A stretch of 64,000 nucleotides of DNA, from NCBI RefSeq assembly GCF_006345805.1, contig NC_043005.1, positions 2,542,001 through 2,606,000 on the forward strand, written 5' to 3'. Source of the DNA: Octopus sinensis. Lineage: Eukaryota. Below, one piece after another: positions 37,501 to 61,173 of the stretch. Every line of letters begins with the position of its first letter. Position 1 is the stretch's first letter. The notes below the pieces were generated by a model. The model did no database searches and was not told the origin of the DNA. It saw nothing but the letters and a program-made list of their open reading frames with translations. A program made the position numbers and the translations under genes.

Positions 37501-38574
37501 CAGATAAAAGATCTCTTGCAATTGTTTAAGGCTGTAACTTAGCATAGTGGTTAGGATGTTGAGCAGAATACGATGTGGAATTCGTTCGGTTTTCTGAGTT
37601 CAAGTCTTCCCAAGGTCAACTTTTGTTTCTTTTCTTTTATTCTTTGAGAGTAGATAAAAGATCTACCAATCCAAGGCAGTGACATGAAGCAACTGTTCTC
37701 GCTAACTGCCCAACTTCCTTGCGTTCTAACAGCAACGCCTGCAACAACACTGCCACCTCACTCACCAACCTTCTCCTCCTGTCGTCTGCATATGAAGGCT
37801 CAAGTTGTCTTGCCTTCAGCATCGGTTGTAACCAGTTGTTCTTAATATAAAGAAAGTTAAACTCTGCTGTCTTTCTTTCTTTTTTCATTTGCCTCCTGCT
37901 AACTTTTCTCTGAAGAAGATTTTTATATAAATGTGTGTGTGTGTGCGTGTGTGTGTGTTTATAAATAAACTCACGGAGATTGATATCGCGCGGTTTCTGT
38001 GCTAGGGATGGCTCTTTTGAATATTTTTCTCTTTTTCTTTTTTCTTTTTTCTTCTTCTTATTTTTGCTGCCTTGGTCTTTCTTTTTCAATTCTTTGAAGA
38101 AGAATTTTATCCGAAATTTTAGGACCATCAACTTTTTTCCTTTCCTTCCAGCGTCAAGCTAATAACACTCTACGTTCGTTCTTGAAAGAAAAATAGGCCG
38201 TATGTGTAGGGAGAATTTATTGATACGATTTCGAATCTCAGGTAGGAGCAAGCGAGGTCTGTACAGAACTTATCAGTAACTTAAATTCCGGATATACGAA
38301 ATGTAACGTCAGGCAGTTGCTGGCGGAGACGATGAGGCGTCCAGGATTGTTGAGCTTGTGGATTTGGGGAAGGAAGTAAATAGTGGGGGTGCGTGGGGAG
38401 CGGTTTTAGTTCCAGCTAAATCACCTGTTACAGGTAAAAATTCAACAACGTCTTGTCTGATGTTAACAATCAGATAAAACCAGATTTAATAAATGAGCAA
38501 TATTTAGTGAGACAGGAAATATTAACTGGATGGAGAAAATAAATATATTAAGAGAGAGAACGGGCAGACAGAAA

Positions 38575-39110
38575 GAGAGGAAAAAAGAAAGGAAGAAAGA
38601 AAGAATGAAAGAAAGAAGGAAAGAATGAAAGAAAGAAAGAATGAAAGAAAGAAAGATAGAAAGAAATAACGAACGAAAGAAAGAACGAAAGAAAGAATGA
38701 GAGAAAGAAAGAAAGAATGAAAGAATGAAAGAAAGAACAAAAGAAAAAAGAAAGAAAGAAAGAAAGAAAGAAAGAATGAAAGACGGAAGAAAGAATCAAA
38801 GAAAGACAAAATGAGAGAACGAAAGAAAGAATGAAAGAAAGAAAGAAGAAAAGAAACAAACAAACAAACAAAGAGTGAAAGAAAGAAAGAACAAAAGTAA
38901 GAATGAAAGAACGAAAGAAAGAATGAAAGAAAGAAAGAAAGAAAGAGAGAATGAAAGGACGAAAGTAAGAATAAAAGAAAGAAAGAATATAGAAGAAAGA
39001 AAAGAAGAGAAAAGAATAAGCAAAGAATAATAAGAAAAGAACGAGAGAAAGAATGAATGATGGAAAGAAAGAAGAAAAGAACGAGAGAAAGAATGAAAGA
39101 ACGAAAGAAA

Positions 39111-39150
<40 letters not shown>

Positions 39151-42100
39151 TAACAACGAAAGAAAGAAAGAATGAAAAAAAGTAACAACGAAAGAAAGAA
39201 TGAAAGAATGAAAGAAAGAAAGAAAGAAAGAAAGAAAGTAAGAAAGAAAAAACGAAAGAAAGAAACAAACAAAGAAAATAAGAAAGAAAATAAGAAAGAA
39301 TGAAAGAAAGAATGAAAGAAGGAAAGAAAGTATGAAAGAAAGAATGAAAGAACGAAAGAAAGAATAAAAGAGAGAAAAAATGAAAGAGAGAAAGAATGAA
39401 AGTATGAAAGAAAGAATGAAAGAACGAAAGAAAGAAAGAAAGAAAGAAAAGAAGAAAGAAGAAAAGAACGAGAGAAAGAATGAAAGAGAGAAAGAAAGAA
39501 AAAACGCAAGAACAAAAGAAAGAATGAAAAAGTGATTGAAAGAAAGAGTGAAAGAAAGAGAGAACAAAAGAAAGAATGAAAGAATGAAAGAACGAAAGAG
39601 AGAATGAAAGAAAGAAAGAATGAATGAATGAATGAAAGAAAGAAAAAAGAAAAAAGTAAAGAACGAGAGAAAGAAAGAAGAAAGAAAGAATAACAACGAA
39701 AGAAAGAATGAACGAAAGAAAGTAACAACGAAAGAAAGAATGAAAGAATGAAAGAAAGAAAGAAAGAAAGAAAGAAGGTAAGAAAGAAAGAACGAAAGAA
39801 GGAACGAAACAAAGAAAATAAGAAAGTAATAAAGAAAGAATGAAAGAAAGAATGAAAGAAAGAAAGTACGAAAGAAAGAATGAAAGAACGAAAGAAAGAA
39901 TGAAAGAGAGAAAGCATGGAAGAAAGAATGAAAGAACGAAAGAAAGAAAGAAAGAAAGAAAAGAACAAGAAAAAGTAAGAAAGAAAGACAGAAAGAAAGA
40001 AAGAAAGAAAGAAGAAAAGAACGAACGAAAAAAAGAAAGAAAGCGAGAAAGAACGAAAGAAAGAAAGAAAGGAGAAAAGAACGAAAGAAAGAAAGAAAGT
40101 ATAAAAGAAAGAATGAAAGAACGAAAGAAAGAATGAAACAAGGAATGAAAGAAAGTATGAAAGAAAGAATGAATGAACGAAAGAAAGACTGAAAGAAAGA
40201 AAGAAAGAAAGAAGAGAACGAACGAAAGAAAGAAAGTATGAAACAAAGAATGAAAGAACGAAAGAAAGAATGAAAGAAAGAATGAAAGAATGAAAGAAAG
40301 AATGAAAGAAAGAATGAAAGAACAAAAGAAAGTATGAAAGAAAGAATGAAAGAAAGAAAAAAAGAATAACAGAAAGAACGAAAGAAAGAAAAAACGAAAG
40401 AGAAAAAGAAAGAAAGAATGAATGAAAGAAAGAAAAGAAAGAAAAAGAAGAACCAAAGAATGAATGAAAAACGAAAGAAAGAATGAAAGATAGAAAGAAA
40501 GAAAGAAACGAAGTATGAAAGAAAGAATGAAAGAAAGAATGAAAGAAAGAAAGAAGGAAAGAAGAAAGAATGAGAGAAAGAAAGACAGTAGAAGGAAAGA
40601 TAGAAAGAAAGAAAGAAAGAAAGTATGAAAGAAAGAATGAAAGAAAGAAAGAAAGTATGAAAGAAAGAATGAAAGAAGGAAAGAAAGAATGAAAGAAAGT
40701 AAGAAAGAAAGAAGAAAGAAAGAAAGAAAGAACGAAGCAAGGAAAATAAGAAAATAAGAAAGAATGAAAGAAAGAATGAAAGAAAGAAAGAAAGTATGAA
40801 AGAAAGAATGAAAGAACGAAAGAAAGAATGAAAGAACAAGAAAAAGTAAGAAAGAAAGAAAGAAGGAAAGAAAGAAAGAAAGATAGAAGAAAAGAACGAA
40901 CGAAAGAAAGAAAGAAAGAAAGAAAGAAGAAAAAAACGAAAGAGAGAAAGAAAGTATGAAAGAAAGAATGAAAGAACGAAAGAAAGAATGAAAGAAAGAA
41001 TGAAAGAAAGAAAGAAAGTATGAATGAAAGAATGAAAGAACAAACGAAAGTATGAAAGAAAGAATGAAAGAACGAAAGAAAGACTGAAAGAAAGAAAGAA
41101 AGAAAGAAAGAAAGAAGAAGAGAACGAACAAAAGAAAGAAAGTATGAAACAAAGAATGAAAGAACGAAAGAAAGAATGAAAGAAAGAATGAAAGAATGAA
41201 AGAAAGTATGAAAGAAAGTATGAAAGAACAAAAGAAGGTACGAAAGAAAGAATAAAAGAACGAAAGAAAGAATGAAAGAAAGAAAGAAAGAAAGAAAGAA
41301 AGAAAAAACGAAAGTAAGAATAAAGGAAAGAATAAAAGAAAGAAAAAACGAAAGAGAGAAAGAAAGAAAGAATGAATGAAAGAAATAAAGAAAGAAAGAA
41401 CCAAAGAATGAATGAAACGAAAGAAAGAATGAAAGAAAGAAAGAAAGAAAGAAAGAAAGAATGAAAGAAAGAATGAAAGAAATAAGAAAGAAAGAAGAAA
41501 GAACGAGAGAAAGAAAGACAGAAGAAGGAAAGAAAGAAAGAAAGAAAGAAAGAAACTATGAAAGAATGAATGAAAGAAAGAAAGAAAGAAAGAAAGAAGA
41601 AATGAACGAGAGAAAGAGATAAAGACAGAAGAAAGAAAGAAAGAAAGAAAGAAAGTATGAAGGAAAGAACGAAAGAAAGAAAGAAAGTATGAAAGAAAGA
41701 ATGAAAGAACGAAAGAATGAATGAAAGAAAGAATGAAAGAAAGAAAGTAATTATGAAAGAAAGAATGAAGGAAGAAAAGAAAGTATGAAAGAAAGAATGA
41801 AAGAATGAAAGAAAGAATGAAAGACAGAAAGAAAGTAAGAAAGAAAAAAGAAAAAACGAAAGAAAGAATAAGAGAAAGAATGAAAGAAAGAAAGAACGAA
41901 AGAGAGAAAGAAAGCAAGAAAGAAAGAATGAAAGAAAGAATGAAAGAATGAAAAAAACAAAGAAACCAAGAAGAAAAGAACGAGAGAAAGAAAGAAAGAA
42001 GAAAAGAACGAACGAAAGAAAGAAAGAAAGAAAGAATGAAAAACAGAAAGAAAGAAAGAAAGAATTAATGAATGAATGAATGAATGAAAGAAAAATGAAT

Positions 42101-45100
42101 GAAGAAAAAAACAGAGAAAGAAAGAATGAATGAAAGAAAGAAAGAAAGAAAGACGGAAAGAAAAAAAGAAAGAAAGAAGAAAAGAAAGAAAGAAGATATG
42201 AAAGAATAAAGAATGAAAGAACGAAAGAAAGAGAAATAAAGAAATAAAGAAGAAAAGAACGAGGAAAGAATAAAGATAAAAGAAAAAGAATGAATGAAAT
42301 AATGAAATTAAATAAAACCAAATAAGGAATGAAAGAATGAAAGAACTAAAGAACAAAGAAAAAAAAACAGAAAGAAAGAATAAATAAGAAAAAAAAAAGA
42401 CGAAAGAAGAATAAAAGAAAGAATGAAGAAATAAAGAACGAAAGAGAGAAGAAGAAAGAAAGAATGGAAGAAAGAAAGAAAGGAAGAAGAAAAGAACGAG
42501 AGAAAGAAAGAATGAAAGAGAGAAAGAAAGAAAAAACTAAAATATGAATAAAAAAACTAAAGAAATAATGAAAGACAGAAAGAAAGAAAGAAAGACAGAA
42601 AGAAAGAAAGAAAGAAAGAAAGACAGAAGAATGACAGAAGGATAGAAAGTATGAAAGAAAGAAAAAAGAAAGAAGAAAAGAACGAGAGAAAGAAAGAATG
42701 AAAGTATGAAAAAAGAAAGAAAATAGATCAAGACAAAGAAGCAAGAAAGAAAGAAGAAAAGAACGAACGAAGAAAGAAAAAAGAAAAAGAAGAAAGAAAT
42801 AAAGACAGACAGAAAAAATAAAGAAATAATGAAATAATGAAAAAAAGAAATAAAGAATAAAAGAAAGCAGAAGAAAGAATTACGAAAGAAAGAACAAAGA
42901 AATAAGCAAATAACAAGAAAAAGTAAGAAATAAGAAAGAAGAATAATAGATACGAACGAAAGAAAGAAAGAAAGCGAGAAAGACGAAAGAAAGAATGAAG
43001 AAAGAAAGAAAGAAAGAAAGAAAGAACGAAAGAAAGAAAGAAATTGTGAAAGAAATAATGAAAGAACGAAAGAATGAATGAAAGAAAGAATGAAAGAAAG
43101 AAAGACAGAAAGTATGAAAGAAAGAATGAAGGAAGAAAAGAACGTATGAAAGAATGAATGAAAGAACGAAAGAAAGAATGAAAGACAGAAAAAAAGAATG
43201 AAAGACAGAAAGAAAGTAAGAAAGAAAAAAGAAAAAACGGAAGAAAGAACAAGAGAAAGAATGAAAGAAAGAAAGAACGAAAGATAGAAAGAAAGCAAGA
43301 AAGAAAGAATGAATGAAATAAAGAAACAAAGAAACAATAAAGAAGAACGTTAAAGACAGAAAGAAGAAAAGAAAACTAACGAAATAAAAGAAGAATAAAG
43401 ACAGAATGAGAAAGAAGAATTATTGAATGAATGAATGATGAATGAATAAGAAATAAAATGAATAAAGAAGAAAGAAAGAAGAAGTATTTAAGAAAAAAAG
43501 AATGAAAGAACGAAAGAAGAATGAAAGACGAAATAAGAAAGAATAAAGATGAAGTAACGAAGAAAGAATAAGATATAAAGATAAAGATAAAATAACGAGC
43601 GAAAGAATTAAAGATAGAAGAAAGAAAGAATGAAAGAAGAATTAAGAAATAAAGAACAAAATATGGAATGAAAGAAGAAAAAACTAAGTAAAGAATGAAA
43701 ACAAAATAAAGAAATAAAATAAATAAAAATAAAAACTTACGTACGAAATAATTAAATAAAGAATTAAATAAATAACAACTAAATAAAATCATAAAGAAAG
43801 AATTAAGAAAGAAGAAATTAATGAGAAATAACTATAGAAATAAAGAAAAAACGAAATAAATAATGAATAAAGAAATAAGGAAATAAGAATAAGAAATTAT
43901 GAAATAAATAATGAAAGAAAGAATGAATTATTAAGGAATAAGAAATACATAAGAAAGACGATAGAAAGAAGAAATACAGAATAATTACAGAAAGATAAAA
44001 TATGAATAAAAAAGAAAGAATAAAGAAACGAGAAAGAAAGAATGAAATATGAAAAAAGAAAGAAGAATAGATCAAGAAAAGTAGCAAGATAGAAAGGAAC
44101 AAGAAGAAAGAAAGAATGAAGAAAGAAAGAACTAAGAAAGAAAGAAAGAAAGAAAGAAAGACAGACATAAAGAAAGAAAGAATAAATGACAGAAGAAAGA
44201 ATGAAATAAATAAAGAAAAAGAATGAAAGTAAAAATTATAAAGAATGAATAATGAATGAATTAATAAAGAAAGAAAAAGGAATGAAGAAAAAAACAAGAG
44301 AAACAGAACGATAGAAAGAAAGAAAAGAATGAAGAAATAATAAAAGACGGAGAGAAAGAAGAAGTAAGAAAGAAATAAGGATAAAAGAAAGAAAGATAGA
44401 ATAAATAAAGAAAGAAATGAATATTTAAGAAATAATAAGAAAGAAATAAAGTATGAAGGAAAGAATGATTGAAGAACAAAGAAAGATGAAAAGACAGAAA
44501 GATATAAAGAAGAAAAGAACGAGAGAAAGATTGAAAGATAAAAACAAAGAAAGAATGAGAGAGAGAATGAAAAAAGAATGAAATATAGAAAGACAAAGAA
44601 AGATAAAGTAAAAGAAGAATGAAGGATTAATAACGAAAAAAGGAAAACAAAAGAATGAGAGAAAGAAAGAAAAAACGAAAGTAAGAACGAAAAAAAGAAT
44701 AAAAGAATGAAAGAAAGAAAAAAGAAAGGAAGAAGGAATAAAAGAACAAAAAAAGAATGACGAGAGAAAGAAGAAATAAAGAAAGAAGGAAAGAAGACAG
44801 AAAAAGTATAAGAAAAAAAAGAAGAAAAAAAAAGTATGAAAGAAAGAATGAAAGAACGAAAGAAAGAATGAAAGAATGAAAGAAAGAAAGAAAGAAAGAA
44901 AAGAACAAGGAAAAGTAAGAAAGAAAGAAAGAAAGAAAGAAAGCGAGAAAAAACGAAAGAAAGAATGAAAGAAAGAAAGAGAGTAAGAAAAAAAGAAAGA
45001 ACGAAAGAACGAAAGAAAGAAAGAAAGTATGAAAGAAAGAATGAAAGAACGAAAGAAAGAATGAAATAAAGAATGAAAGAAAGAAAGAAAGTATGAAAGA

Positions 45101-47312
45101 AAGAATGAAAGAACAAAAGAAAGTATGAAAGAAAGAATGAAAGAAAGAAACAATGAAAGACAGAAACAATAAAAGAAAGAAAGAAAAAAGAAAAAACGAA
45201 TGAAAGAATAAAAGAAAGAATGAAAGTGAGAAAGAACGAACGATAGAAAGAAAGAAAGCAAGAACGAAAGAAAGAAAAAAGAAAGAAGAAAAGAACGAGA
45301 GAAAGAAAGAATGAAAGAAAGAAAGGAAGAAAGAAAGAAAGAAGGAAAGAAGAAAAGAAGGAAAAAAGAATGAAAGAAAGAAAGAAAGAAGGAAAGAAGA
45401 AAAGAACGAAAAAAAGAAAGAAAGACCGAAGAAAGAAAGAAAGAAAGAAAGAAAGTATGAAAGAAAGAAAAAAGATGAAGAAAAGATCAAGAAAAAGTAA
45501 TAAAGAAAGAAACAAACAAAGAAAGTAAGAAAAAAAGGTAAGAAAAAAGAAAACAACGAAAGAAAGACAGAAAGAAGGTAAGAATGAATTAAAGACAGAA
45601 AGAAAGAATGAAAGAAAGAAAGAAAGAGTTAATGAAATAATGAATGAATGAATGAAAGAAAAAGGAATGAAGAAAAAAACAAGAGAAAGAAAGAACGAGA
45701 AAATTAAAGAAAGAATGAATGAAAGAAAGAAAGAAAGAAAGACAGAAATAAAGAAAGAAAGAAGAAAACAAAGAAATAAAGTATGAAAGAAAGAAAGAAT
45801 GAAAGAACGAAAGAAAGAATGAAAGACAGAAAGAAAGAAAGAAGAAAAGAACGAGAGAAAGAATGAAAGATAGAAAGAAGAAAAGTACGAGCGAAAGAAT
45901 GAAAGATAGAAAGAAAGAAAGAATGAAAGAGAGAATGAAAGAAAGCATGAAAGAAAGAAAGAACAAAAGAAAGAATGAAAGAATGAAAAACGAAAGAAAG
46001 AATGAAAAGACAGAATGAAAGAAAGAAAGAAAGAAAGAAAGAAAAAAGAAAAACGAAAGAAAGAATAAAAGAAAGAATGAAAGAAAGATAGAACGAAAGA
46101 GAGAAAGAAAGAAAGAAAGAATGAAAGAAAGGAAGAAGAAAAGAACGAGAGAAAGAATGAATGAAAGAACGAAAGAAAGAATGAAAGAAAGAAAGAAAGA
46201 AAGAAAGTATGAAAGAAAGAATGAAAGAAAGAATGAAAGAAAGAAAGAAAGAAAGAAAGAAAGAAAAAAGAAGAAAAGAACGAGAGAAAGAAAGAAAGAT
46301 AGAAGAATGACAGAAATAAAGAAAGAAAGTATGAAAGAAAGAATGAAAGAAAGAAAAAAGAAAGAAGAAAAGATCAAGAAAAAGTAAGAAAGAAAGAAGA
46401 AAAGAACGAACGAAAGAAGAAATAAACTGAAAGAAGAATTAAAGACAGAAAGAAAAGAGAAAGAAAGAAAGAATGAAAGAAAGGAAGAAGAAAAGAACGA
46501 GAGAAGAATGAATGAAAGAACGAAAGAAAGAATGAAAGAAAGAAAGAAAGAAAGAAAGTATGAAAGAAAGAATGAAAGAAAGAATGAAAGAAAGAAAGAA
46601 AGAAAGAAAGAAAGAAAAAAGAAGAAAAGAACGAGAGAAAGAAAGAAAGATAGAAGAATGACAGAAAGAAAAGAAAGTATGAAAGAAAGAATGAAAGAAA
46701 GAAAAAAGAAAGAAGAAAAGATCAAGAAAAAGTAAGAAAGAAAGAAGAAAAGAACGAACGAAAGAAAGAAAGAAAGACTGAAAGAAAGAATGAAAGACAG
46801 AAAGAAAGAGAGAAAGAATGAAAGAAAGAAAGAATGAATGAAATGAATGAATGAATGAATGAATGAATAATGAAAGAAAGAAAAAGGAATGAAGAAAAAA
46901 CAAGAGAAAGAAAGAACGATAGAAAGAAAGAAAGAATGAATGAAAGAAAGAAAGAAAGAAAGACAGAAAGAAAGAAAGAAAGAAAGAAAGAAGAAAAGGA
47001 AGAAAGATAGAAAGAATGAAAGAAAGTAAGAAGAAAGAAAGAAAGTAAGAAGGTATGAAAGAAAGAAAGAATGAAAGAACGAAAGAAAGAATGGAAGAGA
47101 AAAGAACAAAAGAAAGAATGAAAGAATGAAATAACGAAAGAAAAATGAAAGAAAGAATGAATGAATGAATGAATAAATGAATGAAAGAAGGAAAAAGGAA
47201 AAAAAAGAACGTGAGAAAGAAAGAAAGAACGAAAGTAAGAACGAAAAAAGAATGAAAGAATGAAAGAAAGAAAGAAAGGAAGAAGGAATGAATGAGCAAA
47301 AGAAAGAATGAC

Positions 47313-47351
<39 letters not shown>

Positions 47352-47533
47352 AGAAAGAAAGAAGTAAAGAATGAAAGAAAGAAAGAAAGAAAAAAGTAAG
47401 AAAGAAAGATAGAAAGAAAGAAAGAAAGAACGAAAGAAAGAAAGAAAGAACGAAAGAATGAAAGAATGAAAGAATGAAAGAAAGAAAGAAAGAAAGGAAA
47501 TATGAAAGAAAGAATAAAAGAAAGTAAGAATGA

Positions 47534-47569
<36 letters not shown>

Positions 47570-47770
47570 CAGAAAGAAAGAAAGAAGGAATGAAAGAACG
47601 AAAGAAAGAATAAAAGAAAGAAAGAATGAAAGAGAAAGAAAGAAAGTAGAAAAGAACGAGAGAAAGTAAGAAAGAAAGAAAGAAAAAGAATGGAAGAAAG
47701 GAAGAAGAAAGAAAGAAACAAGGAAAGAATGAAGAAAGGCAGAAGGAAAGAGAAATGAAAAAAAGAACAA
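38575..47770. repeat. ~9.2 kb (GAAA)n-based polypurine array
   Basis: GAAA with GAAT/GAAC/GTAT variants throughout. Source of the F/S/L-rich giant pseudo-ORFs. Confidence 0.97.
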
Positions 47771-48132
47771 AGAGGGGAGAAAGGATGGAATCAAAGAAAC
47801 CCGCAAAATCGGAAATGAAAGGAATAAGTTGTGTCTGCCAACCGACTTCTTTATTTTTGGAAATGTGACGTTTTTAAAGAAATCCGTTGTTGGAGATTTG
47901 TTTAGTTTCAGTAGTGGCGGTGGTGGTGGTGGTGGGGATAATGGTGGGGAGGAGTGATTGGTTCTGTTGTCGTCGAGCTTTAGCTGCATCTCTACCACTA
48001 ATGCTCTTACCATCGCTGCTGTAGACTGGCCACTACCAGCTGTTGTCATTCACAGAAGCTGTTTACCATTTGTTGCTACCATTTTTTCTGATTCTGTTAC
48101 TACATCGACACCACCACAGCCACCACTACTAT

Positions 48133-51121: not shown

Positions 51122-51765
51122 CACGATCTGATCAATAAGTATGCCGATTCTTTCCATAGTAGAATGAAGGCGCTTGGCAAAGATTGACCTTAAACTCTGC
51201 CGTGCATGTGCAATAAGTTTTAACAGCTCACTTCCGCTGTTTACAGTAGTGTTTGGAAGGAAGGTGTGTTGCATGTGATCGTCGCATTGACAATGACAGA
51301 GAAAACTGTCATGGTGATACTTGCTCAGAAAGTGTATGGAGAGGAGTGTTTGAGCTTCACACAAGTGTACGCGTGGTTCAGACGTTTCCAAATTGGCCGA
51401 GCAAATGTCGATATTGACGAACGTTCTGAGAGGCCAGCAATCAGCAGAACTGAGAAAAACATCGCAGTTGCAAAAGATCTCCTTGATTGTGTCGAGAACG
51501 ATGAAAAAGTTTGAAAACTTTGCGCAGGCCTCTAAGCAAGTATCACCAAGATTTTGGCAAAATTTGATGCAGATTCTCTGCTCACCTTTCTCTGTGATGG
51601 TCAATGCGACAACCACACGTTACACACCTTCCTACCGAGCACTGCTGTAAACAACAGAACAGGGCTGGAGCGTTAAGACTTAGTGTGCATTCACATCAGA
51701 GTTTAAGCTTAATCTGTGCCCAGCAGCTTTGTTACTGTGGCAACAGCAGCTTTGTTACTATGGCA
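51122..51765. mobile_element. Non-autonomous mariner built from two inverted 5' ends
   Basis: + strand encodes VYGEECLSFTQVYAWFRRF..GR...DERSERP; - strand encodes EQRICIKFC. 51150-51305 is an inverted match to 51585-51765. Confidence 0.8.
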
Positions 51766-52127: not shown

Positions 52128-54673
52128 CCCCAAAAAGTTCTACCAAGAACTGGGAAAAAATAAAATAGAAGTCACTGCAGCACCAACGGCAGAAGAATTG
52201 GAAGAATTCTGGAGAGAAATATGGTCGGCGAACGAACAGCCAAAAAAAGGAGTATCAAAATAACAAACTCGGCATCTGAACACTTTGGACCCCATAACAA
52301 CTGAAGAGGTCACCCAGGCACTGCAAAAACTAAGCAACTTGAAGGCACCTGGGCATGACAAGATCCCCAACTTCTGGTTGAAATATCTAACGGAATGCAC
52401 AAAAAGCTGGCTGAAAACTTTAACAGCATACTAGCAGAGCCAGAGACAATGCCTGAATAGCTCACAAGGGAAAAACCATCTTAATTCCCAAATCAAATGA
52501 AACAGCAAAACCAGAAAACTACAGACCAATAACCTGCCTCCCTACTATGTTCAAGGCATTTACTGCAGTTATATCGCAAAGGCTGAACAAGCACCTGGAC
52601 GAAAACAAACTGTTCCCAGAAGAGCAGAAAGGATGCCGCAAAGGCTCATATAGCTGTAAAGATCAACTAATGATTAATAAAGCCGTAACTGAAGACAGCC
52701 ACAGAAAGAAGAAAGGCCTCAGTATGGCCTGGATTGACTACAAAAAGGCGTTTGATAGCATCCCCCACACATGGATCCTCGAAACACTAGCCATTAACAA
52801 AGTAGCACCAACAATCATAAAATTCATAGAGCACTCTATGAATAAATAGCAAACAGTCCTACACCTCCAAACAAAAGAGGGACTCATGAAAACCAAAGAC
52901 ATCCCCATTAGAAGAGGAATATTCCATGGAGACAGCGCTCTCCCACTCCTTTTCTGCTTGGCACTGTCACCTCTATCTGATATGCTAAGTAGAACTGGAT
53001 GCGGATATAAATGTTACGGCAAATGATCAGCCACCTTTTATATATGGATGACCTAACTATACGCTGCAAATGACAAACAGCTGAAACACTATTAAAGACA
53101 GTTCATGGATTTACCAAAGAAATAGATATGAAATTTGGATTAGAAAAATGCGCCAAAGTAACCATGAAAAGAGGAAAACTAGTTAAGAGTAACAACATCA
53201 CACTAGATAAAACCAATGAATAAAAGAATTAGACCAAAGCCAAACTTACAAATACTTAGGAATCCATGAACTAGATAAGACACAACACACACAAATGAAA
53301 GAGAAAATAAAAAGAATATTATAGACGAGTTGATCAATACTAAAAACAGGCTCAATGCTAAAAACAAGATAATAGGTATCAACACTTTAGCTGTCCCAGT
53401 TATAAGTTACAGCTACAATATCCTTAACTGGACACGAAATGAACTGTCCAAAATAGATAGGAAAACAAAAAAATACTGACAGGATCTAGATGCATCACCC
53501 AAAATCTGACATAGAAAGACTATATACAACGTATAGAAGGTGGTAGAGGCCTTATACAGCTGGAAAACTACTATAAAATAACCACCATAGGACTGCAAAA
53601 ATACTCTACTCAGAAGGAAGGAAAACTGATCCAGATAGCAGCAAAACACGAGCAAACAAAAACTGTTCTCAGTATTTAAGGAAGCTTACAAATACAAACA
53701 AGAAATCATACCACCTAATAAACACGAAGAAGAAGAAGATGATGATGAAGAAACACAAAAGCTATAAACAAATGAAATCCAAACTAAAATAGAACAGCAA
53801 CGAACCATGATAAAACGATGGCAAGAAAAGCCCCTTCATTGTCAATACTGCACTAAACTAAACGCAAAAGAAATAGACAAAGAAAAATCTCAACAATGGT
53901 TGAGAAGCTCAGGACTCAAAGCAGAGACAGAGGGATTTTTAATTGCAGCACAAGACCAAAGCCTCCCCACCAGAATTACCAAAAACATGTAATGAAAAGA
54001 AATATTACAAGTAACTGCAGAATATGCAGATGGACAAGAAACAATAAATCATATTATCTCTAGCTGCCCAGTCCTGGCTAAGAAGGAATATTCACAGACA
54101 TGACAGAGTTGGAACCTACATACATTGGAAGCTATGCCAACATTATGGAATAACAACAGAAAAAAGATGGTATAGGCACACACCATAAAAGGTCCAGAAA
54201 CCGAGAAAGCAACCATACTCTGGATATGCCGATACACACAGATAGAGAAATTAAGGCCAACAGACCAGATATAGTTGTCAGAGATCATGAAGAAAAAAAT
54301 GCTTTCTAATTGATGTATCAATACCGGCAGATGACAACGTGTCTCTAAAAGAAATGGAGAAACTCTCAAAACCAAAGACCTGGAAATAGAGGTAACTAGA
54401 ATGTGGAATCTGAAAACAGAAACAATTCCTATCATAGTAGGTGCATTAGGCATGATAAAAAAATATTCAGACTAATACATAACAAAAACACCAGGACTTA
54501 CAACACATATAACATACAGAAAATTGCACTACTAGGCACTGCACACATCCTACGCAGAACACTTTCCATACAATAACCATCAGAGCATCACACAAATCAC
54601 AGCACATACCCAAGGCACACAGAGCTGCGCTTGGTAGTGAAGTGAAAGCACGCTATAAAAATAAAACTACTGA

Positions 54674-54675
<2 letters not shown>
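52128..54675 (+). mobile_element. R4/Dong family A, 5'-truncated, 2.5 kb
   Basis: FWREIWS, APGHDKIPNFWLK, RT, CCHC, RLE, 3' UTR. (TAA)n on both sides; many 1-bp deletions. Confidence 0.95.
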
Positions 54676-54705
<30 letters not shown>

Positions 54706-54902
54706 TAATAATATAATAATATAATAAAATAATAATTATAATAATAATATAATAATAATAATATAATAATAATAATAATAATGATAATGATGATGATGTT
54801 GATGATATGATGATGATGATGATGGATGATGATGATGATGATGATGATGATAATAATAATAATAATAATAATATAATAAAATAATAATAATAATACTATA
54901 AT

Positions 54903-55295
54903 AAATATCTAACAGAATGCACAAAAAGCTGGCTGAAAACTTTAACAACATACTGGCAGAGCCAGAGACAATGCCTGAATGGCTCACGAAGGGGAAAACC
55001 ATCTTAATTCCCAAATCCAATGAGACAGCAAAACCAGAAAACTACAGACCTTTAACCTGTCTCCCAACAATATACAAAGTTTTTACTGCAGTAATATCAC
55101 AAAGATTGAACAAGCACCTGGAGGAAAACAACCTGTTTCCAGAAGAGCAGAAAGGATGCCGCAAAGGCTCATATGGCTGTAAATGAACAATCTGGGGTAT
55201 TTATTCTAATGGCCTACCAATGTATACAATGAGTTTCTCTGCCCTATGTGCCAGGAAGACACCCGGCAAGAAATTGGGACAGAACTGAAAAAAGA
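54903..55295 (+). mobile_element. Family A RT fragment fused to a family D-type 3' UTR
   Basis: PEWLTKGKTILIPK...GSYGCK to 55183, then GGCCTACCAAT...GGAAGACACCCGGCAAG matching 59750-59815. Confidence 0.8.
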
Positions 55296-55303
55296 TAATA
55301 ATA

Positions 55304-55360
<57 letters not shown>

Positions 55361-55366
55361 ATTATT

Positions 55367-57032
55367 AAAGGTATTAACACTTTAGCCGTCCCAGTTATAA
55401 GTTACAGCTACAATATCCTTAACTGGACACTAATGAACTAAGCAAAATAGATAGGAAAACAAGAAAAATAATGACAGGATCTAGGATGCACCGCCCCAAA
55501 TCTGACATTGAAAGGCTATATATACAACGTATAGAAGGTGGTAGAGGCCTTATAAAGCTGGAAAACTATTATAAAATAACCACCATCGGACTGCAAAAAC
55601 ACCTACTTCAGAAGCAAGGAAAACTGATACAAATAGCGGCAAAACACGAGCAAAACAAAAAACTGTTCTCAGTATTTAAGGAAGCTGACAATACAAACAA
55701 GAAATCATACCTCCTAACAATATGAAGAGGAAGAAGAAGAAAAAGAAGAAGAAAAGAAGAAGAAGAAGAAGAAGAGAAGAAGAGAAGAAGAAGAAGAAGG
55801 AAGAGAAGAAAAAAGAGGAAGAAAAGAAGAAGAAGAAGAAGAAGAAGAAAAGAAGAGGAAGAAAAGAAGAGGAAGAAAAAGAAGAAGAAGAAGAAAAGAA
55901 GAAGAGGAGAAAAGAAGAAGAAGAAGAAGAAGAAGAGGAAGAAAAAGAAGGAAGAAAAGACGAAGAAGAAGAAGAAGAAGAAGAGGAAGAAAAAGAAGAG
56001 GAAGAAAAAGAAGAAGAGAGAAGAAGAAGAGGAAGAAAAAGAAGAGGAAGAAGAAGAGAAGAAGAAGAAGAAGAAGAAGAAGAAGAAGAAGAAGAAGAAG
56101 AAGAAGAAGAAGAAGAAGAAGAAGAAGAAGAAGATACAACAAAAGCTATAAAACAAATGAAATCCAAACTAGAACAGCAACGGACCATGATAAAACGATG
56201 GCAAGAAAAACTAAATGCAAAAGAAATAGACAATGAAAAATCCCAGCAATGGTTGAGAAACTCAGGACTCAAAGCAGAGACGGAAGGATTTTTAATTGCA
56301 GCACAAGACCAAAGCCTCCCCACCAGAAATTACTAAAAACATGTAATGAAAAGAAATATAACAAGTAACTGCAGAATATGTGCAGATGGACAAGAAACAA
56401 TAAATCATATTATCTCTGGCTGCCCAGTCCTGGCTAAGAAGGAATATATTCACAGACACGACAGAGTTGACACCTATATACACTGGAAGCTATGCCAACA
56501 TTATAGAATAACAACAGAAAAAAGATGGTATAGGCACACGCCTGAAAAGGTCACAGAAAACGAGAAAGCAACCATACTGTGGGATATGCCGATACACACA
56601 GATAGAGAAATTAAGGCCAATAGGCCAGATATAGTTGTCAGAGATCATGAAGAAAAAAATGCTTTCTAATTGATGTATCAATACCGGCAGATGACAACGT
56701 GTCTCTAAAAGAAATGGAGAAACTCTCAAAATACAAAGACCTGGAAATAGAGGTAACTAGAATGTGGAATCTGAAAACAGAAACAATTCCTATCATAGTA
56801 GGTGCATTAGGCATGATAAAAAAATATTCAGACAAATACATAACAAAAACACCAGGACTTACAAACACATATAACATACAGAAAATTGCACTACTAGGCA
56901 CTGCACACATCCTACGCAGAACACTTTCCATACAATAACCATCAGAGCATCACAACAAATCACAGCACATACCCAAGGCATACAGAGCTGCGCTCGGTAG
57001 TGAAGTGAAAGCACGCTATAAAAATAAAACTA

Positions 57033-57037
<5 letters not shown>
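55367..57037 (+). mobile_element. R4/Dong family A 3' half with expanded (GAA)n
   Basis: INTLAVPV, GGRGLI, CCHC, RLE, 3' UTR, (TAA)n tail. Confidence 0.95.
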
Positions 57038-57087
<50 letters not shown>

Positions 57088-59200
57088 TAATTTTCTTATG
57101 GTTTCTTAAATATTCTCTAGAACAACACTGTACAAAACCAAATATATGCCACCCTAGGCATAATACCAACATGAACTTCCAACTTGTTGTCTCTTGAGGT
57201 CTCTGGGTGAGACTTGGAGCCAACTTGTACAAATGTAAAGCAAAAGTAAAACATAAAATAATAAATATATCTGAGTAAGTATAAAGATCTTGAAATAGAA
57301 ATCGGCAAAATGTGGAACCTCAAGTTTGAAACAATACTTGTTGTCATAGGAATGATTGGAAAAGGGGTTAATTGCTATTGTAGCAAGCAAGTTGTAAACG
57401 GCCGTAATATGACGTGATGGTCACGTTGCCCGAACAAGTATAATTCTTAGATTCCGATTGGTTAAAATTATTGCCCATATTTGAATTCTAAACTTTCGTC
57501 AAAGAGAAATCTTTCACGAAATACGTTTCTTAGTATTCAGGTCTGAGTAGTTATAAAAACCCTGATTTTGGGGAAATTAATCTGTCCGTTGGTTGTCACT
57601 CATCTCCACGACACTTCTTTGAGATATTGGCTATTTTTATGCTATGTCTATAACTTAAATCCAACAAGACTTATTTGAATTGTTGTGTAAACTCGAGTAG
57701 TTTAGTATGAAAGAATTAGCTAGTATAAATTTTATGTCATAATTCTCTACGACAAATTTCTTTGACTTCTAAATGTACTGTAAATATTAAATGCACGTAA
57801 CTAAACTAATGTAGTAAATATTTTCTCTGCCTTCACTTTTTTCAATCTGTTAATGAAATTTATTTCTGCAATTATGAAACTATGTGTTCTTTTTATATCG
57901 GTTAAAAGAACACGAATTTATTTATCTTCAACATACATGCACGTTCAATATGTCCGTTAAGTGTCATGACATATATATTTCTCTTCGGCGTTTATGTAAC
58001 TTGAGTTAGGATCTATGTATAGTGATAATACTAATAATTAAGTTATAAGTGGCGGGTTTATCAATATAGTTTCTCACTCAGGAAATAAAATATATTTATT
58101 ATCTATTCCAAGTCGAAACCACATAAATAAGATAAAATATACCCTTACAAAAGTGGTATCCAGTTACCGTTATAAAAGTGGTGACGCTTGTGAAAAATAT
58201 ACAAAATTTCAAATAGAAAATAGACGACAGTTTCATTACACAAAATTTTATTAACGGAAATATTTTATATTAAAAGTTGAAGGGAAAAAAAAGAAATAAA
58301 CAATAATAGTTGTAAGAAGTTTTAACTGCACTTTCAAGCAAACTAGATTTATACTTCATAGTTGTTGAAAGTATTATTTCACCAAGTGAAAAATTTTTTT
58401 TTTTGAAAATTTTAATAAATTTGAATGGAAGAAAATATTAAAGAGTTTGAAATGTCTTATTTCGATAAAGGATATAGGCAAGCTTCTACGACAGTTTTAT
58501 CTCCTGCTTGGATGGGAGATGCCATTATCTGGTTTGCTCACTTAGAAGCAAGTTTTGCAGTAAACAGAATAACAACAGAGGCACAAAAATATAACATTGT
58601 CAAGTAACTTACCACCAGCTATGAGCAATGAAATTAGGGACTTATTAATAGATCCTACCGAACGATTTTCCTATTCTTCCGTAAAGGAATGGATACCAAA
58701 AGAGGACTTCCAACTCCAAACAAAAACAATTTGCTAAACTGTTCAATAACGAACAACTGGGCGACATGAAACCTACTCGACTTCTTCGTAGAATGAAAGG
58801 TTTCTCTTTCCCGAAAGTTTAGAATTCAAATATGGGCAGTGATTTTAACCAATGGGAAACTAAAAATTACACTTGTTCGGACAACATGACCATCACGTCA
58901 TATTACCGCCGTTTGCGACTTACTTGCTACACTATCTAGCTCAGATGCCAGGAAATCCCAAAATGGCAGAAATTCAAAAAATATTGCTCGTGGGAACTGC
59001 ACATATCTTACGTAAAGTACTGTCTATGTAATCTCAAATTTTAATACAAACTCATAATAATTTTCTTAAACATTCACTAGAACAATACTATGTTCAAAAC
59101 CAAATATATGACACCCTAGGCATAACACCAATATGAACTTCTAACTTGTCTCTGGATGAGACTTGGAGTCAACTTGTACAAATACAAAGTAAAAGTCAAA
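57088..59200 (+). mobile_element. R4/Dong family C 3' fragments, the second interrupted at 57379-58931
   Basis: 3' UTR at 57088-57260, then SKYKDLEIEIGKMW...KGVNCY | insertion | LAQMPGNPKMAEIQK...LSM* and a 3' UTR. Confidence 0.85.
57379..58931 (+). mobile_element. Gypsy-like LTR + gag fragment bounded by 138-bp inverted repeats, 4-bp TSD
   Basis: TGTAGCAAG...CTTGCTACA termini with CTAT on both sides. Putative LTR end TTACA at 58149 followed by TGG PBS-like motifs. Gag-like PAW..D..IWFAHLEASF...IT....KY, EIRDLL, EQLGDMKPTRLLRRM. Confidence 0.8.
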
Positions 59201-59201
59201 A

Positions 59202-59276
<75 letters not shown>

Positions 59277-59278
<2 letters not shown>

Positions 59279-59840
59279 TTTTCTAACTGAAGGAGAAAAT
59301 GTAACCATTCTGTGGGACTTTCCAGTACATACAGACCGAACCATCAAGGCCAATAAACCAGATATTGTTGTGAAAGACCAAAACAATAAAGTTTGCTTAT
59401 TGATCGACATGAGCATCCCCTGTGATCATAATATCTCAGCGAAAGAGTTTGACAAGCTCAGAAAGTATAAAGACCTACTCATTGAAATTGAGAAAATGTG
59501 GCATCTCAAGGCGGTTACAATACCAGTGATCGTAGGAGCACTAGGAATGATCAAGAAGGGAACCGAAAATTATATGAGAATGATCCCTGGCTTACCATCC
59601 CTGCAAGAAGTGCAAAAGATTGTCTTAACTGGTACATCACACGTATTGAGAAGAGCATTGTCGATGTGAGAACTGTTGCTGCTCATGTATTTTAATTTAA
59701 CTTTAAAAAAAAAAATTAAAAAAATGAACGAACTACTGAGTTTGGTTTAATGGCCTACCAATATACACTATGAGTTTCTTTGCCCTAGGAGTCGGGAAGA
59801 CACTCGGCAAGAGATGGAAGAAAATTTGAAAGAAGAAGAA
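59277..59840 (+). mobile_element. R4/Dong family D, 3' end (RLE)
   Basis: ILWDFPVHTDRTIKANKPDIVV...IDMSIP...KLRKYKDL...LRRALSM*. (TAA)n flanks. Confidence 0.9.
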
Positions 59841-59865
59841 AAATAATAATAATAATAATAATAAT

Positions 59866-61173
59866 AGAGAAAGAAATGACAGAAAAATTGAAGGTGGAGT
59901 ACTTGCGCAGACTACTGAGACTGATCCTTAAGTCGAAATTAAACGACCGAAATAAGATTGAACCTGGGCGGTTTCACTCCTCAGATATGGAGCAGGAGTA
60001 ATCGCATGGACAGTAGAAGAACTAAACAGCTTAGACAGAAAGACAAGGAAGTTGCTAACTAGATATGGGATACTCCACCCAAAAGGTGACACAGACAGAC
60101 TGCATGTACCAAGAAAAAGAGGGGGAAGAGGGCTGATTGGATGCGAACACAGCATTAGAGCAGAAGAAAACAACATAGCACGGTATCTAGAAAATGCCAC
60201 AGAACCGCTATTATTGGAAGTAGGAAGGTCAGGTTTGTGTAGGATGAAAGATAGCAAAGATAAAGTACTATACAAGAAATTGAAAACGAATGAAACTGAA
60301 AATAGGTGGGTAAAGAAAAGAATGCATGGTCAATTTCATAGGGATGTTGAAGATAAGACAGACAGAGAAAAAAGATGGTTGTGGATGACTAAAATGGATT
60401 TAAAACCGGAAACGGAGGCTCTAATCTGTGCTGCCCAAGAGCAAGCACTAAAAACAAACTACATAAAATACAGAATAGACAACACAGCAGAAAGTGATAA
60501 GTGTAGAATCTGTGGACAAACCGGTGAAGCCATATGGCGTATTAGCAGCCAATGTACGCCACAAACCAAGAAGGAATATAAGAGACACCACGACAATATA
60601 GCCAGGCTTTTCCATTGGACACTTTGCAACAAGTATGGACTTGAAAGAGCAAAAAATCCGTACGACCACAAACCTGAAGGCATCTTTGAAAAATGGAAAT
60701 GTAGAGATCCTATGGGATTTTATGATACAGTGTGACCATGAGATTGAGAATAGGAAACCGGACATAGTGTTAATTGAGAAAGAAAAGAAACTATGCTGGA
60801 TCATAGATATTGCATGCCCAGCTGACAACAAGGTATGCGATAAAGAAGAAAGAAAAGTCAAGAGATTTGACAGGTTAGCTTGGGAAGTTAAGCAGTTGTG
60901 GTCGATGAGAAAGGTAGCAGTAGTACCAATGCAGTTGTGGTCGATGAGAAAGGTAGCATTAGTACCAATAATTGTCGGAGCCCTGGGAACAGTGAGCAAA
61001 AATCACGTGAAGTATGTGGAACGAAAAGGGGCTGCAATACGGGTGGAGCACTTGCAGAAAACAGAACTGCTTGGAACCGCTCGAATACTCCGGAAGGTGC
61101 TCGAAAAATAAGAGGTGTTACCATAGTTCACTGGTAGTGAACAGCTGACACTGTAGTACATCTCCAGCGTTAG
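59866..61173 (+). mobile_element. R4/Dong family B, 3' 1.3 kb
   Basis: GGRGLIG, MHGQF, CRIC, KPDIV, IDIACP, LRKVLEK*. Internal 39-bp tandem duplication near 60891-60970. Confidence 0.92.

What the first reader, a model, noticed from the sequence alone, without database searches (positions are those of the whole stretch)
57379..58931. Gypsy LTR-gag element with INVERTED terminal repeats and a clean 4-bp TSD
Seen: a 1553-bp insert splits a Dong C coding sequence. It starts TGTAGCAAG, ends CTTGCTACA, and is flanked by CTAT on both sides. The first and last 138 bp (57379-57516 / 58794-58931) are gap-free inverted repeats with 15 mismatches. Inside lie an LTR-like block ending TTACA, TGG PBS-like motifs and a decayed Ty3/Gypsy-type gag that runs into the right repeat at a TGAAA overlap. 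LTR retrotransposons normally have direct repeats, whereas TGT..ACA TIRs with 4-bp TSDs are the hallmark of Ginger DNA transposons. Inference: either a one-off integration of a cDNA with two U3 ends, or a non-autonomous TIR family derived from an LTR retrotransposon and moved by a Gypsy/Ginger-type integrase, i.e. a retro-to-DNA-transposon intermediate.
Basis: partly seen in the sequence, partly recalled or inferred. Interest (0 to 1): 0.75.

Follow-up and report, generated by a model that had tools for sequence, protein, structure and literature searches.

The report
Gypsy copies with two front ends
This insert is a dead piece of a Gypsy-type jumping gene with the front end of its terminal repeat at both ends; it was likely made by a strand jump during copying and then inserted in one piece, and the same family left at least four more such copies, so retrotransposons can give rise to ends shaped like those of DNA transposons.

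Summary
In detail: 1553 bp, 138-bp inverted arms (15 mismatches) and a CTAT duplication, splitting a non-LTR element's frame. The parent is an ordinary CsRn1-like Gypsy family with gag-pro-RT-RH-IN copies and many solo LTRs; both arms are the first 138 bp of its LTR. The gag/arm junction occurs once in the genome, so this is not a TIR family. The architecture does recur, though. Of 7 loci with two intact U3 termini, 4 have an exact 4-bp duplication and 1 a 3/4 match, each with its own junction and target. Four inverted arms break at LTR position ~133-138, inside a U3 hairpin, and two U3-only stubs ending there carry their own duplications. The family's normal U5 end reads TA, not CA. Best reading (0.75): a strand paused in U3 switches template by microhomology before integration, and integrase inserts the two-U3 product. 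No copy holds an integrase and none was re-mobilised. It is a recurrent by-product, and a plausible but unproven route to Ginger-like ends.

The parts
57271..57378 (+). Left part of the interrupted non-LTR (Dong/R4-like, label recalled) endonuclease tail
   Evidence: family D17; frame continues across the empty site
57375..57378 (.). Left copy of the 4-bp target-site duplication CTAT
57379..58174 (+). Complete 5' LTR, 796 bp, TGTAGC...CCGTTATA; TATA-like box at 57552-57559
   Evidence: ends fixed by solo LTRs with duplications
57379..57516 (+). Left arm = first 138 bp of the LTR (U3 side)
57468..57551 (.). Imperfect palindrome (hairpin) in U3 that contains the breakpoint; decayed in this copy
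   Evidence: z -1.28 here; z -2.27 in L009
58179..58187 (+). Primer-binding site TGGTGACGC (TGGTGACC in other copies; tRNA-Trp type by recall and PMC2582038)
58425..58799 (+). 5' part of gag, broken by a stop and frameshifts, cut at parent internal position ~679
58794..58799 (.). Junction microhomology TGAAAG, shared by gag and antisense U3
   Evidence: junction bridged by contigs of 6 of 6 runs laid
58794..58931 (-). Right arm = inverted copy of LTR positions 1-138, ending CTTGCTACA
58932..58935 (.). Right copy of the target-site duplication CTAT
58936..59031 (+). Right part of the interrupted non-LTR endonuclease tail, to its stop

Best explanation
The insert is a dead piece of a CsRn1-like Gypsy retrotransposon with a U3 end on both sides; it was likely formed by a microhomology template switch before integration and likely inserted in one step by the family's integrase. 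Shown: the anatomy, the parent family, the 4-bp duplication, the unique junction, and recurrence at other loci. Inferred: plus-strand synthesis, primed at the polypurine tract, would pause at the hairpin around LTR position 130-170. The paused end (...CTTTCA) would pair with TGAAAG on the opposite strand in gag (equivalently, the strand running through gag jumps onto U3), and copying would run off at the U3 start, giving a linear DNA with two U3 attachment ends. Reverse transcriptase in the particle is the likelier polymerase, but host end-joining of free cDNA pieces cannot be told apart here. Speculative: because the normal U5 end reads TA rather than CA, a two-U3 DNA may compete well as an integrase substrate. 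The product lacks PPT, pol and a 3' LTR and cannot retrotranspose.
For: (1) Recurrence. Seven loci have two intact U3 termini. L001 CTAT, L032 GTAC, L040 GTAT and L177 GCAG have exact duplications, L044 CCAT/TCAT matches 3 of 4, and L083 and L087 have none. Chance of 4 or more exact of 7 is about 4e-8. (2) All five junctions differ: gag; RT; protease via a short LTR piece; the U3 hairpin; RT/RNase H in three hops. (3) The right ends read ...CTACA, the U3 form, not the family's U5 form ...TATA(AAA). The flank offers no homology for a later switch in 4 of 5. (4) Arms belong to the same LTR subfamily: own left arm ranks 5 of 146 (L001), 6 of 143, 5 of 149, 2 of 147 and 23 of 147. Arm identity of 89% matches the LTR pairs of ordinary copies, 83-94% in 4 of 4. 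(5) L001, L031, L040 and L083 break at ruler position 132-135 (4 of 15 hand-listed breakpoints; P about 4e-4, post hoc). The 76-180 region is among the three most stable 90-nt windows on the minus strand in 7 of 7 copies. (6) U3-only stubs L107 and L116 end at the same spot and have exact duplications (2 of the 5 positives among 36 truncated LTRs), suggesting a discrete DNA end there. (7) In the pieces traced, the jumps land on family sequence.
Against: No intermediate was observed; the copies are about 10% decayed. Microhomology is clear in some junctions (6-13 bp in L001, L031, L040, L177, L083, L111, L157) but weak or absent in others (L032, L045, L047, L105), and chained templated pieces also fit host end-joining. 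L032's duplication is palindromic with 7 bp of flank symmetry, so a later switch is possible there. Sixteen other inversion-bearing loci lack a second free U3 end, and L083 has no duplication. L001's arms share only one rare allele, which 27 of 149 other arms equal. About 2 chance positives are expected among the 36 truncated LTRs. No control family with a CA U5 end was surveyed, and the same architecture is noted in fish, fungi and an alga by other agents (unchecked), so the TA end is probably not required.
Confidence: 0.75

Rival explanations
1. A normal element inserted first; a later replication template switch replaced its right part with an inverted copy of its own U3 and kept the old duplication.
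For: The LTR ends are near-inverted (TGTAGC / GCTATA); junctions show microhomology; L032's flank is palindromic over 7 bp.
Against: The switch would have to fall exactly on the element boundary. All five right ends have the U3 form CTACA, with no retained TATA or extra As, and four have no flank homology. U3-only stubs with duplications point to free DNA ends.
Confidence: 0.1
2. Integrase joined only the good U3 end; a host polymerase extended the free end by copying element DNA and host repair closed the site, as for ASLV or HIV with one bad end.
For: The family's U5 end lacks CA (36 of 38 ends). PMC5041404 (Discussion) describes copying from either viral strand with several hops. It may explain the inversion loci without a second U3 end, and L083.
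Against: That route gives large duplications or deletions of host DNA. Here the duplication is exactly 4 bp, the family's normal length, in 4 of 7, and the interrupted frame is in register.
Confidence: 0.07
3. A non-autonomous TIR family derived from the LTR element and moved as DNA by a Gypsy or Ginger integrase.
For: TGT...ACA inverted ends of 138 bp and a 4-bp duplication fit the Ginger1 outline (PMC2836005 passages).
Against: The junction is single-copy. The five duplication-bearing elements all differ. The only repeated rearrangement (L105, L154, L155, L156) shares one flank, so it is segmental duplication. Targets are not CCGG/CCGT. None holds an integrase.
Confidence: 0.03
4. An assembly artefact, or a separate TIR element that captured a Gypsy piece.
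For: No listed contig spans the whole insert; the left outer junction is not bridged in the listed pieces; contigs of 4 of 4 runs leave the window at 58907-58910.
Against: The inner junction is bridged with 0-1 differences in 6 of 6 runs from 5 studies. One X3 contig covers 58878-59000 with 5 differences. The contigs that leave continue into the U3 end of L146, which shares a 32-nt exact word with the arm, as a short-read graph crossover would. The arms are 11% apart, and the 138 bp is the LTR's own start.
Confidence: 0.03

Closest known systems
CsRn1-clade Ty3/Gypsy retrotransposons (CsRn1, PwRn1, AgCR; PMC2582038, passages read)
   Same: The parent has gag with CX2HX9CX3C, pol order protease-RT-RNase H-integrase, a TGGTGACC primer site and 4-bp duplications.
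   Different: The normal U5 end is TA or TAAAA, not ACA; this copy has inverted U3 ends, no PPT and no pol.
Complex LTR insertions made by template switching (Sabot and Schulman 2007, PMC1950507, passages read)
   Same: Aberrant switch in reverse transcription, product inserted as a unit with a target duplication.
   Different: Those are larger fusions with three LTRs; the word 'inverted' does not occur in that paper. Here the switch changes strand and yields two U3 ends.
Ginger1 DNA transposons (Bao et al. 2010, PMC2836005, passages read)
   Same: TGT...ACA inverted termini within 40-270 bp; 4-bp duplication.
   Different: No transposase, no CCGG/CCGT target, no copies sharing a structure. 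The paper calls the LTR-to-TIR step unclear and suggests two separate LTR insertions; here one event appears to give both arms.
Aberrant ASLV/HIV proviruses with one poor end (PMC5041404, passages and Discussion read)
   Same: One non-CA end; rearranged copies with short homologies and several hops.
   Different: There the second end is host-joined with large flank changes; here both ends look integrase-joined.
DIRS-1 retrotransposons (search listing only)
   Same: Inverted long terminal repeats on a gag-bearing retroelement.
   Different: DIRS uses a tyrosine recombinase; this parent encodes an rve integrase and normally has direct LTRs.

Membership tests
Ty3/Gypsy LTR retrotransposon (parent family) | pol order protease-RT-RNase H-integrase | tested here: met
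   L034: RVT_1, RT_RNaseH, Integrase_H2C2 and rve in that order; protease placed by eye from the LVDTGA motif, no Pfam hit
Ty3/Gypsy LTR retrotransposon (parent family) | direct LTRs, PBS and PPT | tested here: met
   L034, L035, L036, L123 have two direct LTRs or LTR pieces; PBS and purine tract
Ty3/Gypsy LTR retrotransposon (this insert as a unit) | direct LTRs and PPT | tested here: not met
   one LTR plus an inverted 138-bp arm; no PPT
CsRn1 clade | Gag CX2HX9CX3C signature | tested here: met
   found in 4 of 6 copies scanned, one with a stop inside; definition from PMC2582038
CsRn1 clade | 4-bp target duplication | tested here: met
   38 of 130 LTR starts with distinct flanks gave an exact 4-bp match; other lengths were not scanned
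CsRn1 clade | tRNA-Trp primer site | tested here: inconclusive
   TGGTGACC seen; match to tRNA-Trp is recalled, host tRNA not compared
CsRn1 clade | RT tree placement | not tested
   no named reference sequences on hand
Ginger1 | TIRs of 40-270 bp starting TGTNR, 4-bp duplication | tested here: met
   138 bp, TGTAG, CTAT
Ginger1 | CCGG/CCGT target | tested here: not met
   CTAT, GTAC, GTAT, GCAG, CCAT
Ginger1 | integrase-like transposase between the TIRs, or copies sharing both ends and inside | tested here: not met
   no integrase in any of the 7 two-U3 loci; junction single-copy
DIRS | tyrosine recombinase instead of DDE integrase | tested here: not met
   the parent encodes an rve integrase

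The most novel reading that the evidence does not exclude
Gypsy elements routinely produce, in one step, integrase-inserted units with TGT...ACA inverted ends from a U3 pause site, at a few percent of surviving insertions. This is the missing route by which Ginger1-type DNA transposons arose from LTR retrotransposons: a switch falling downstream of the integrase gene would give an integrase under the LTR promoter between two good attachment ends. A weak TA-type U5 end would favour such products.
Probability: 0.2. Interest if true: 0.8.

Novelty: new variant of a known kind. Interest (0 to 1): 0.5.

Why it matters
Bao et al. (PMC2836005) left open how an LTR retrotransposon could acquire terminal inverted repeats. 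This family shows such ends arising repeatedly, with normal target duplications, so the structural step is common rather than a coincidence of two insertions. The breakpoints also map a likely pause in plus-strand synthesis to a U3 hairpin, which can be tested in yeast Ty elements. In practice such copies would be missed by LTR finders or misfiled as MITEs or Ginger. The limit: every copy found is dead and single, so nothing here shows a new mobile element.

Tried and rejected
Family of identical TIR units: rejected. LTR end at TTACA 58149: rejected. Breakpoint as the U3/R boundary: unlikely, because a TATA-like box lies at LTR position ~174, downstream of 138; no transcript start was mapped. 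Splicing: the junction has no GT-AG. Simple autointegration: it would join a CA end to internal sequence, whereas the junction is inside U3; only L031 shows such a joint. A second locus identical to the right arm: none. Extending 18 rearranged or partial loci and L034 to 10 kb found no further U3 terminus; the stretches for L158 and L034 missed the intended part. No RNA holder listed. Pfam and PDB gave nothing for the host non-LTR tail. No tRNA gene in the window. Paper searches for this architecture found none: 0 papers; 3 DIRS papers; no 'U3-U3' in the 20 listed of 25. The library lacks most subscription journals, and no supplements were read. Earlier-findings look-ups gave nothing on this family.

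Full report
Observation. The insert 57379-58931 is as described: 1553 bp, 138-bp ungapped inverted arms with 15 mismatches, CTAT on both sides. It interrupts the C-terminal tail of a non-LTR element, and the empty site reads in one frame with the same length as an intact tail nearby, which fixes the duplication at 4 bp. The window lies at G000:C9:2542001-2606000 in a 2.7-Gb genome. The gag/arm junction is bridged by contigs of 6 of 6 public runs laid, from 5 studies, with 0-1 differences. The right outer junction is covered by one contig with 5 differences. The left outer junction is not bridged among the listed pieces. Contigs that leave at 58907-58910 run into the U3 end of locus L146, which shares a 32-nt exact word with the arm; I read this as a short-read graph crossover.

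Parent. A search of the own genome gave 87 matches from 40 of 633 candidates scored. Most are solo LTRs; several continue past the junction into gag, protease and RT. L034 carries DUF7041 gag, RVT_1, RNase H and rve integrase in Gypsy order, then a purine tract and a 3' LTR. Gag has CX2HX9CX3C in 4 of 6 copies scanned. With the TGGTGACC primer site and 4-bp duplications this fits the CsRn1 clade as described in PMC2582038 (passages); no tree was built. The LTR in the window is 57379-58174. Among 130 LTR starts with distinct flanks, 38 had an exact duplication at a U5-like end: TATA 22, TATA plus 1-3 As 14, CA-type 2. One of the 38 (L177) is spurious and a few more may be chance; a stricter pass gave 33 of 103. 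The normal U5 end therefore lacks the canonical CA, while the U3 end has it.

Survey. Five short patterns gave 186 U3 copies in 174 groups (lists were cut at 100 rows), and a sixth added 7 candidates, 5 of them real. All 174 groups were held or fetched: 140, 9 from the window, and 17 with 1.5-kb flanks, 3 of which were refetched longer. Six fetched groups had no LTR. Twenty-three distinct loci hold a strand inversion of family sequence. Seven have two intact U3 termini. L001 (CTAT, junction in gag), L032 (GTAC, in RT), L040 (GTAT, in protease via a short LTR piece) and L177 (GCAG, a fold-back of about 280 bp split by a later insertion) have exact duplications. L044 has CCAT/TCAT. L083 has none, and L087 lies in microsatellite. 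Four or more exact of seven has a chance of about 4e-8. The L001 junction has one exact match in the genome. A pattern for other breaks at this position returned only L031 and L040. The one rearrangement seen four times shares one flank and is a segmental duplication. No two-U3 locus holds integrase.

Where they break. L001, L031, L040 and L083 leave U3 at the same TCTTTCA (ruler 132-135); 4 of 15 hand-listed breakpoints within 4 nt has P about 4e-4, a post-hoc figure. L177, L056, L061 and L127 turn round on the stem of an imperfect palindrome at about 90-170. That region is among the three most stable 90-nt windows on the minus strand in 7 of 7 copies; the U3 fold has z -2.27 in L009 but only -1.28 in the decayed window copy. 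L107 and L116 are U3-only stubs of 134-140 bp that end there, each with an exact duplication (5 positives of 36, about 2 expected by chance overall, but both stubs that end at this spot are positive). Junction microhomology is 6 bp in L001, 8 in L031 and 9 in L177, and weak in L032, L045, L047 and L105.

Mechanism. Shown: two U3 ends, exact duplications, independent junctions, arms of one subfamily, and arm divergence like that of ordinary LTR pairs. Inferred: the two-U3 DNA existed before insertion, because a later rearrangement would have to hit the boundary exactly and would tend to keep the U5 form TATA(AAA). Inferred further: a plus strand paused at the hairpin folds back, jumps to a short match on the opposite strand, or stays as a stub; copying that runs off at the U3 start makes the second attachment end, and integrase inserts the product. 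Host end-joining of free cDNA pieces could make the same junctions. The sixteen inversion loci without a second free U3 end may be one-end integrations finished by the host, as for ASLV and HIV with one bad end (PMC5041404, Discussion read whole), or later damage. A role for the TA end is untested; other agents' unchecked notes report the same shape in fish, fungi and an alga, which argues that it is general.

Comparison and verdict. It works like an aberrant reverse-transcription product inserted whole (PMC1950507, passages; those are not inverted). It looks like Ginger1 in outline but fails on target, transposase and copy number (PMC2836005, passages). That paper leaves the LTR-to-TIR step open, and this family offers a one-step route for it. 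My searches found no paper on this architecture; subscription journals are largely missing and no supplements were read. Novelty: new variant of a known kind. Interest 0.5. The Ginger-origin reading has probability about 0.2.

Noticed in passing
solo LTRs, e.g. L009, L018, L019, L020, L027: The family's U5 end is TATA in some copies and TATAAAA in others, which suggests two processing registers of an end without CA.
   Followed up: partly
window 58140-58187 and many loci: The U5/PBS border carries variable tandem copies of a TTATA-AAAG-TGG unit, as if the LTR end had repeatedly moved past an old primer site.
   Followed up: no
L107 501-634; L116 490-629: U3-only stubs of 134-140 bp with exact 4-bp duplications, ending at the breakpoint hotspot.
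   Followed up: yes
L031 2047-5050: LTR-gag, inverted U3 whose CA end joins gag again, then an inverted LTR: partly like an autointegration joint.
   Followed up: partly
L056 2363-2638; L061 2097-2904: Fold-back U3 ends on LTRs that keep the purine tract on their left; no 5' LTR within 9 kb upstream.
   Followed up: partly
L045, L143, L147, L158: A second cluster of breakpoints near LTR 228-250, in a short tandem repeat and second hairpin.
   Followed up: partly
flanks of 38 insertions: Weak target preference: A or T at -3 (69 of 76 half-sites) and at -2 (64 of 76) outside the duplication; not compared with background.
   Followed up: partly
L105, L154, L155, L156; L029, L210-L212; L065-L067: Same-flank copies, marking segmental duplications, some between chromosomes.
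   Followed up: partly
window 52457-61111: Cluster of decayed non-LTR RT and endonuclease pieces lying between AAT and GAA microsatellites.
   Followed up: no
window 51224-51514: Open frame that resembles a mariner transposase N-terminus (recalled, not tested), near 81-bp inverted repeats at 51224-51304 and 51587-51667 and a run of N.
   Followed up: no
window 38001-48000: 10-kb tract of extreme strand skew (GC skew 0.55-0.78, AT skew 0.62-0.83), probably a purine-rich simple repeat.
   Followed up: no
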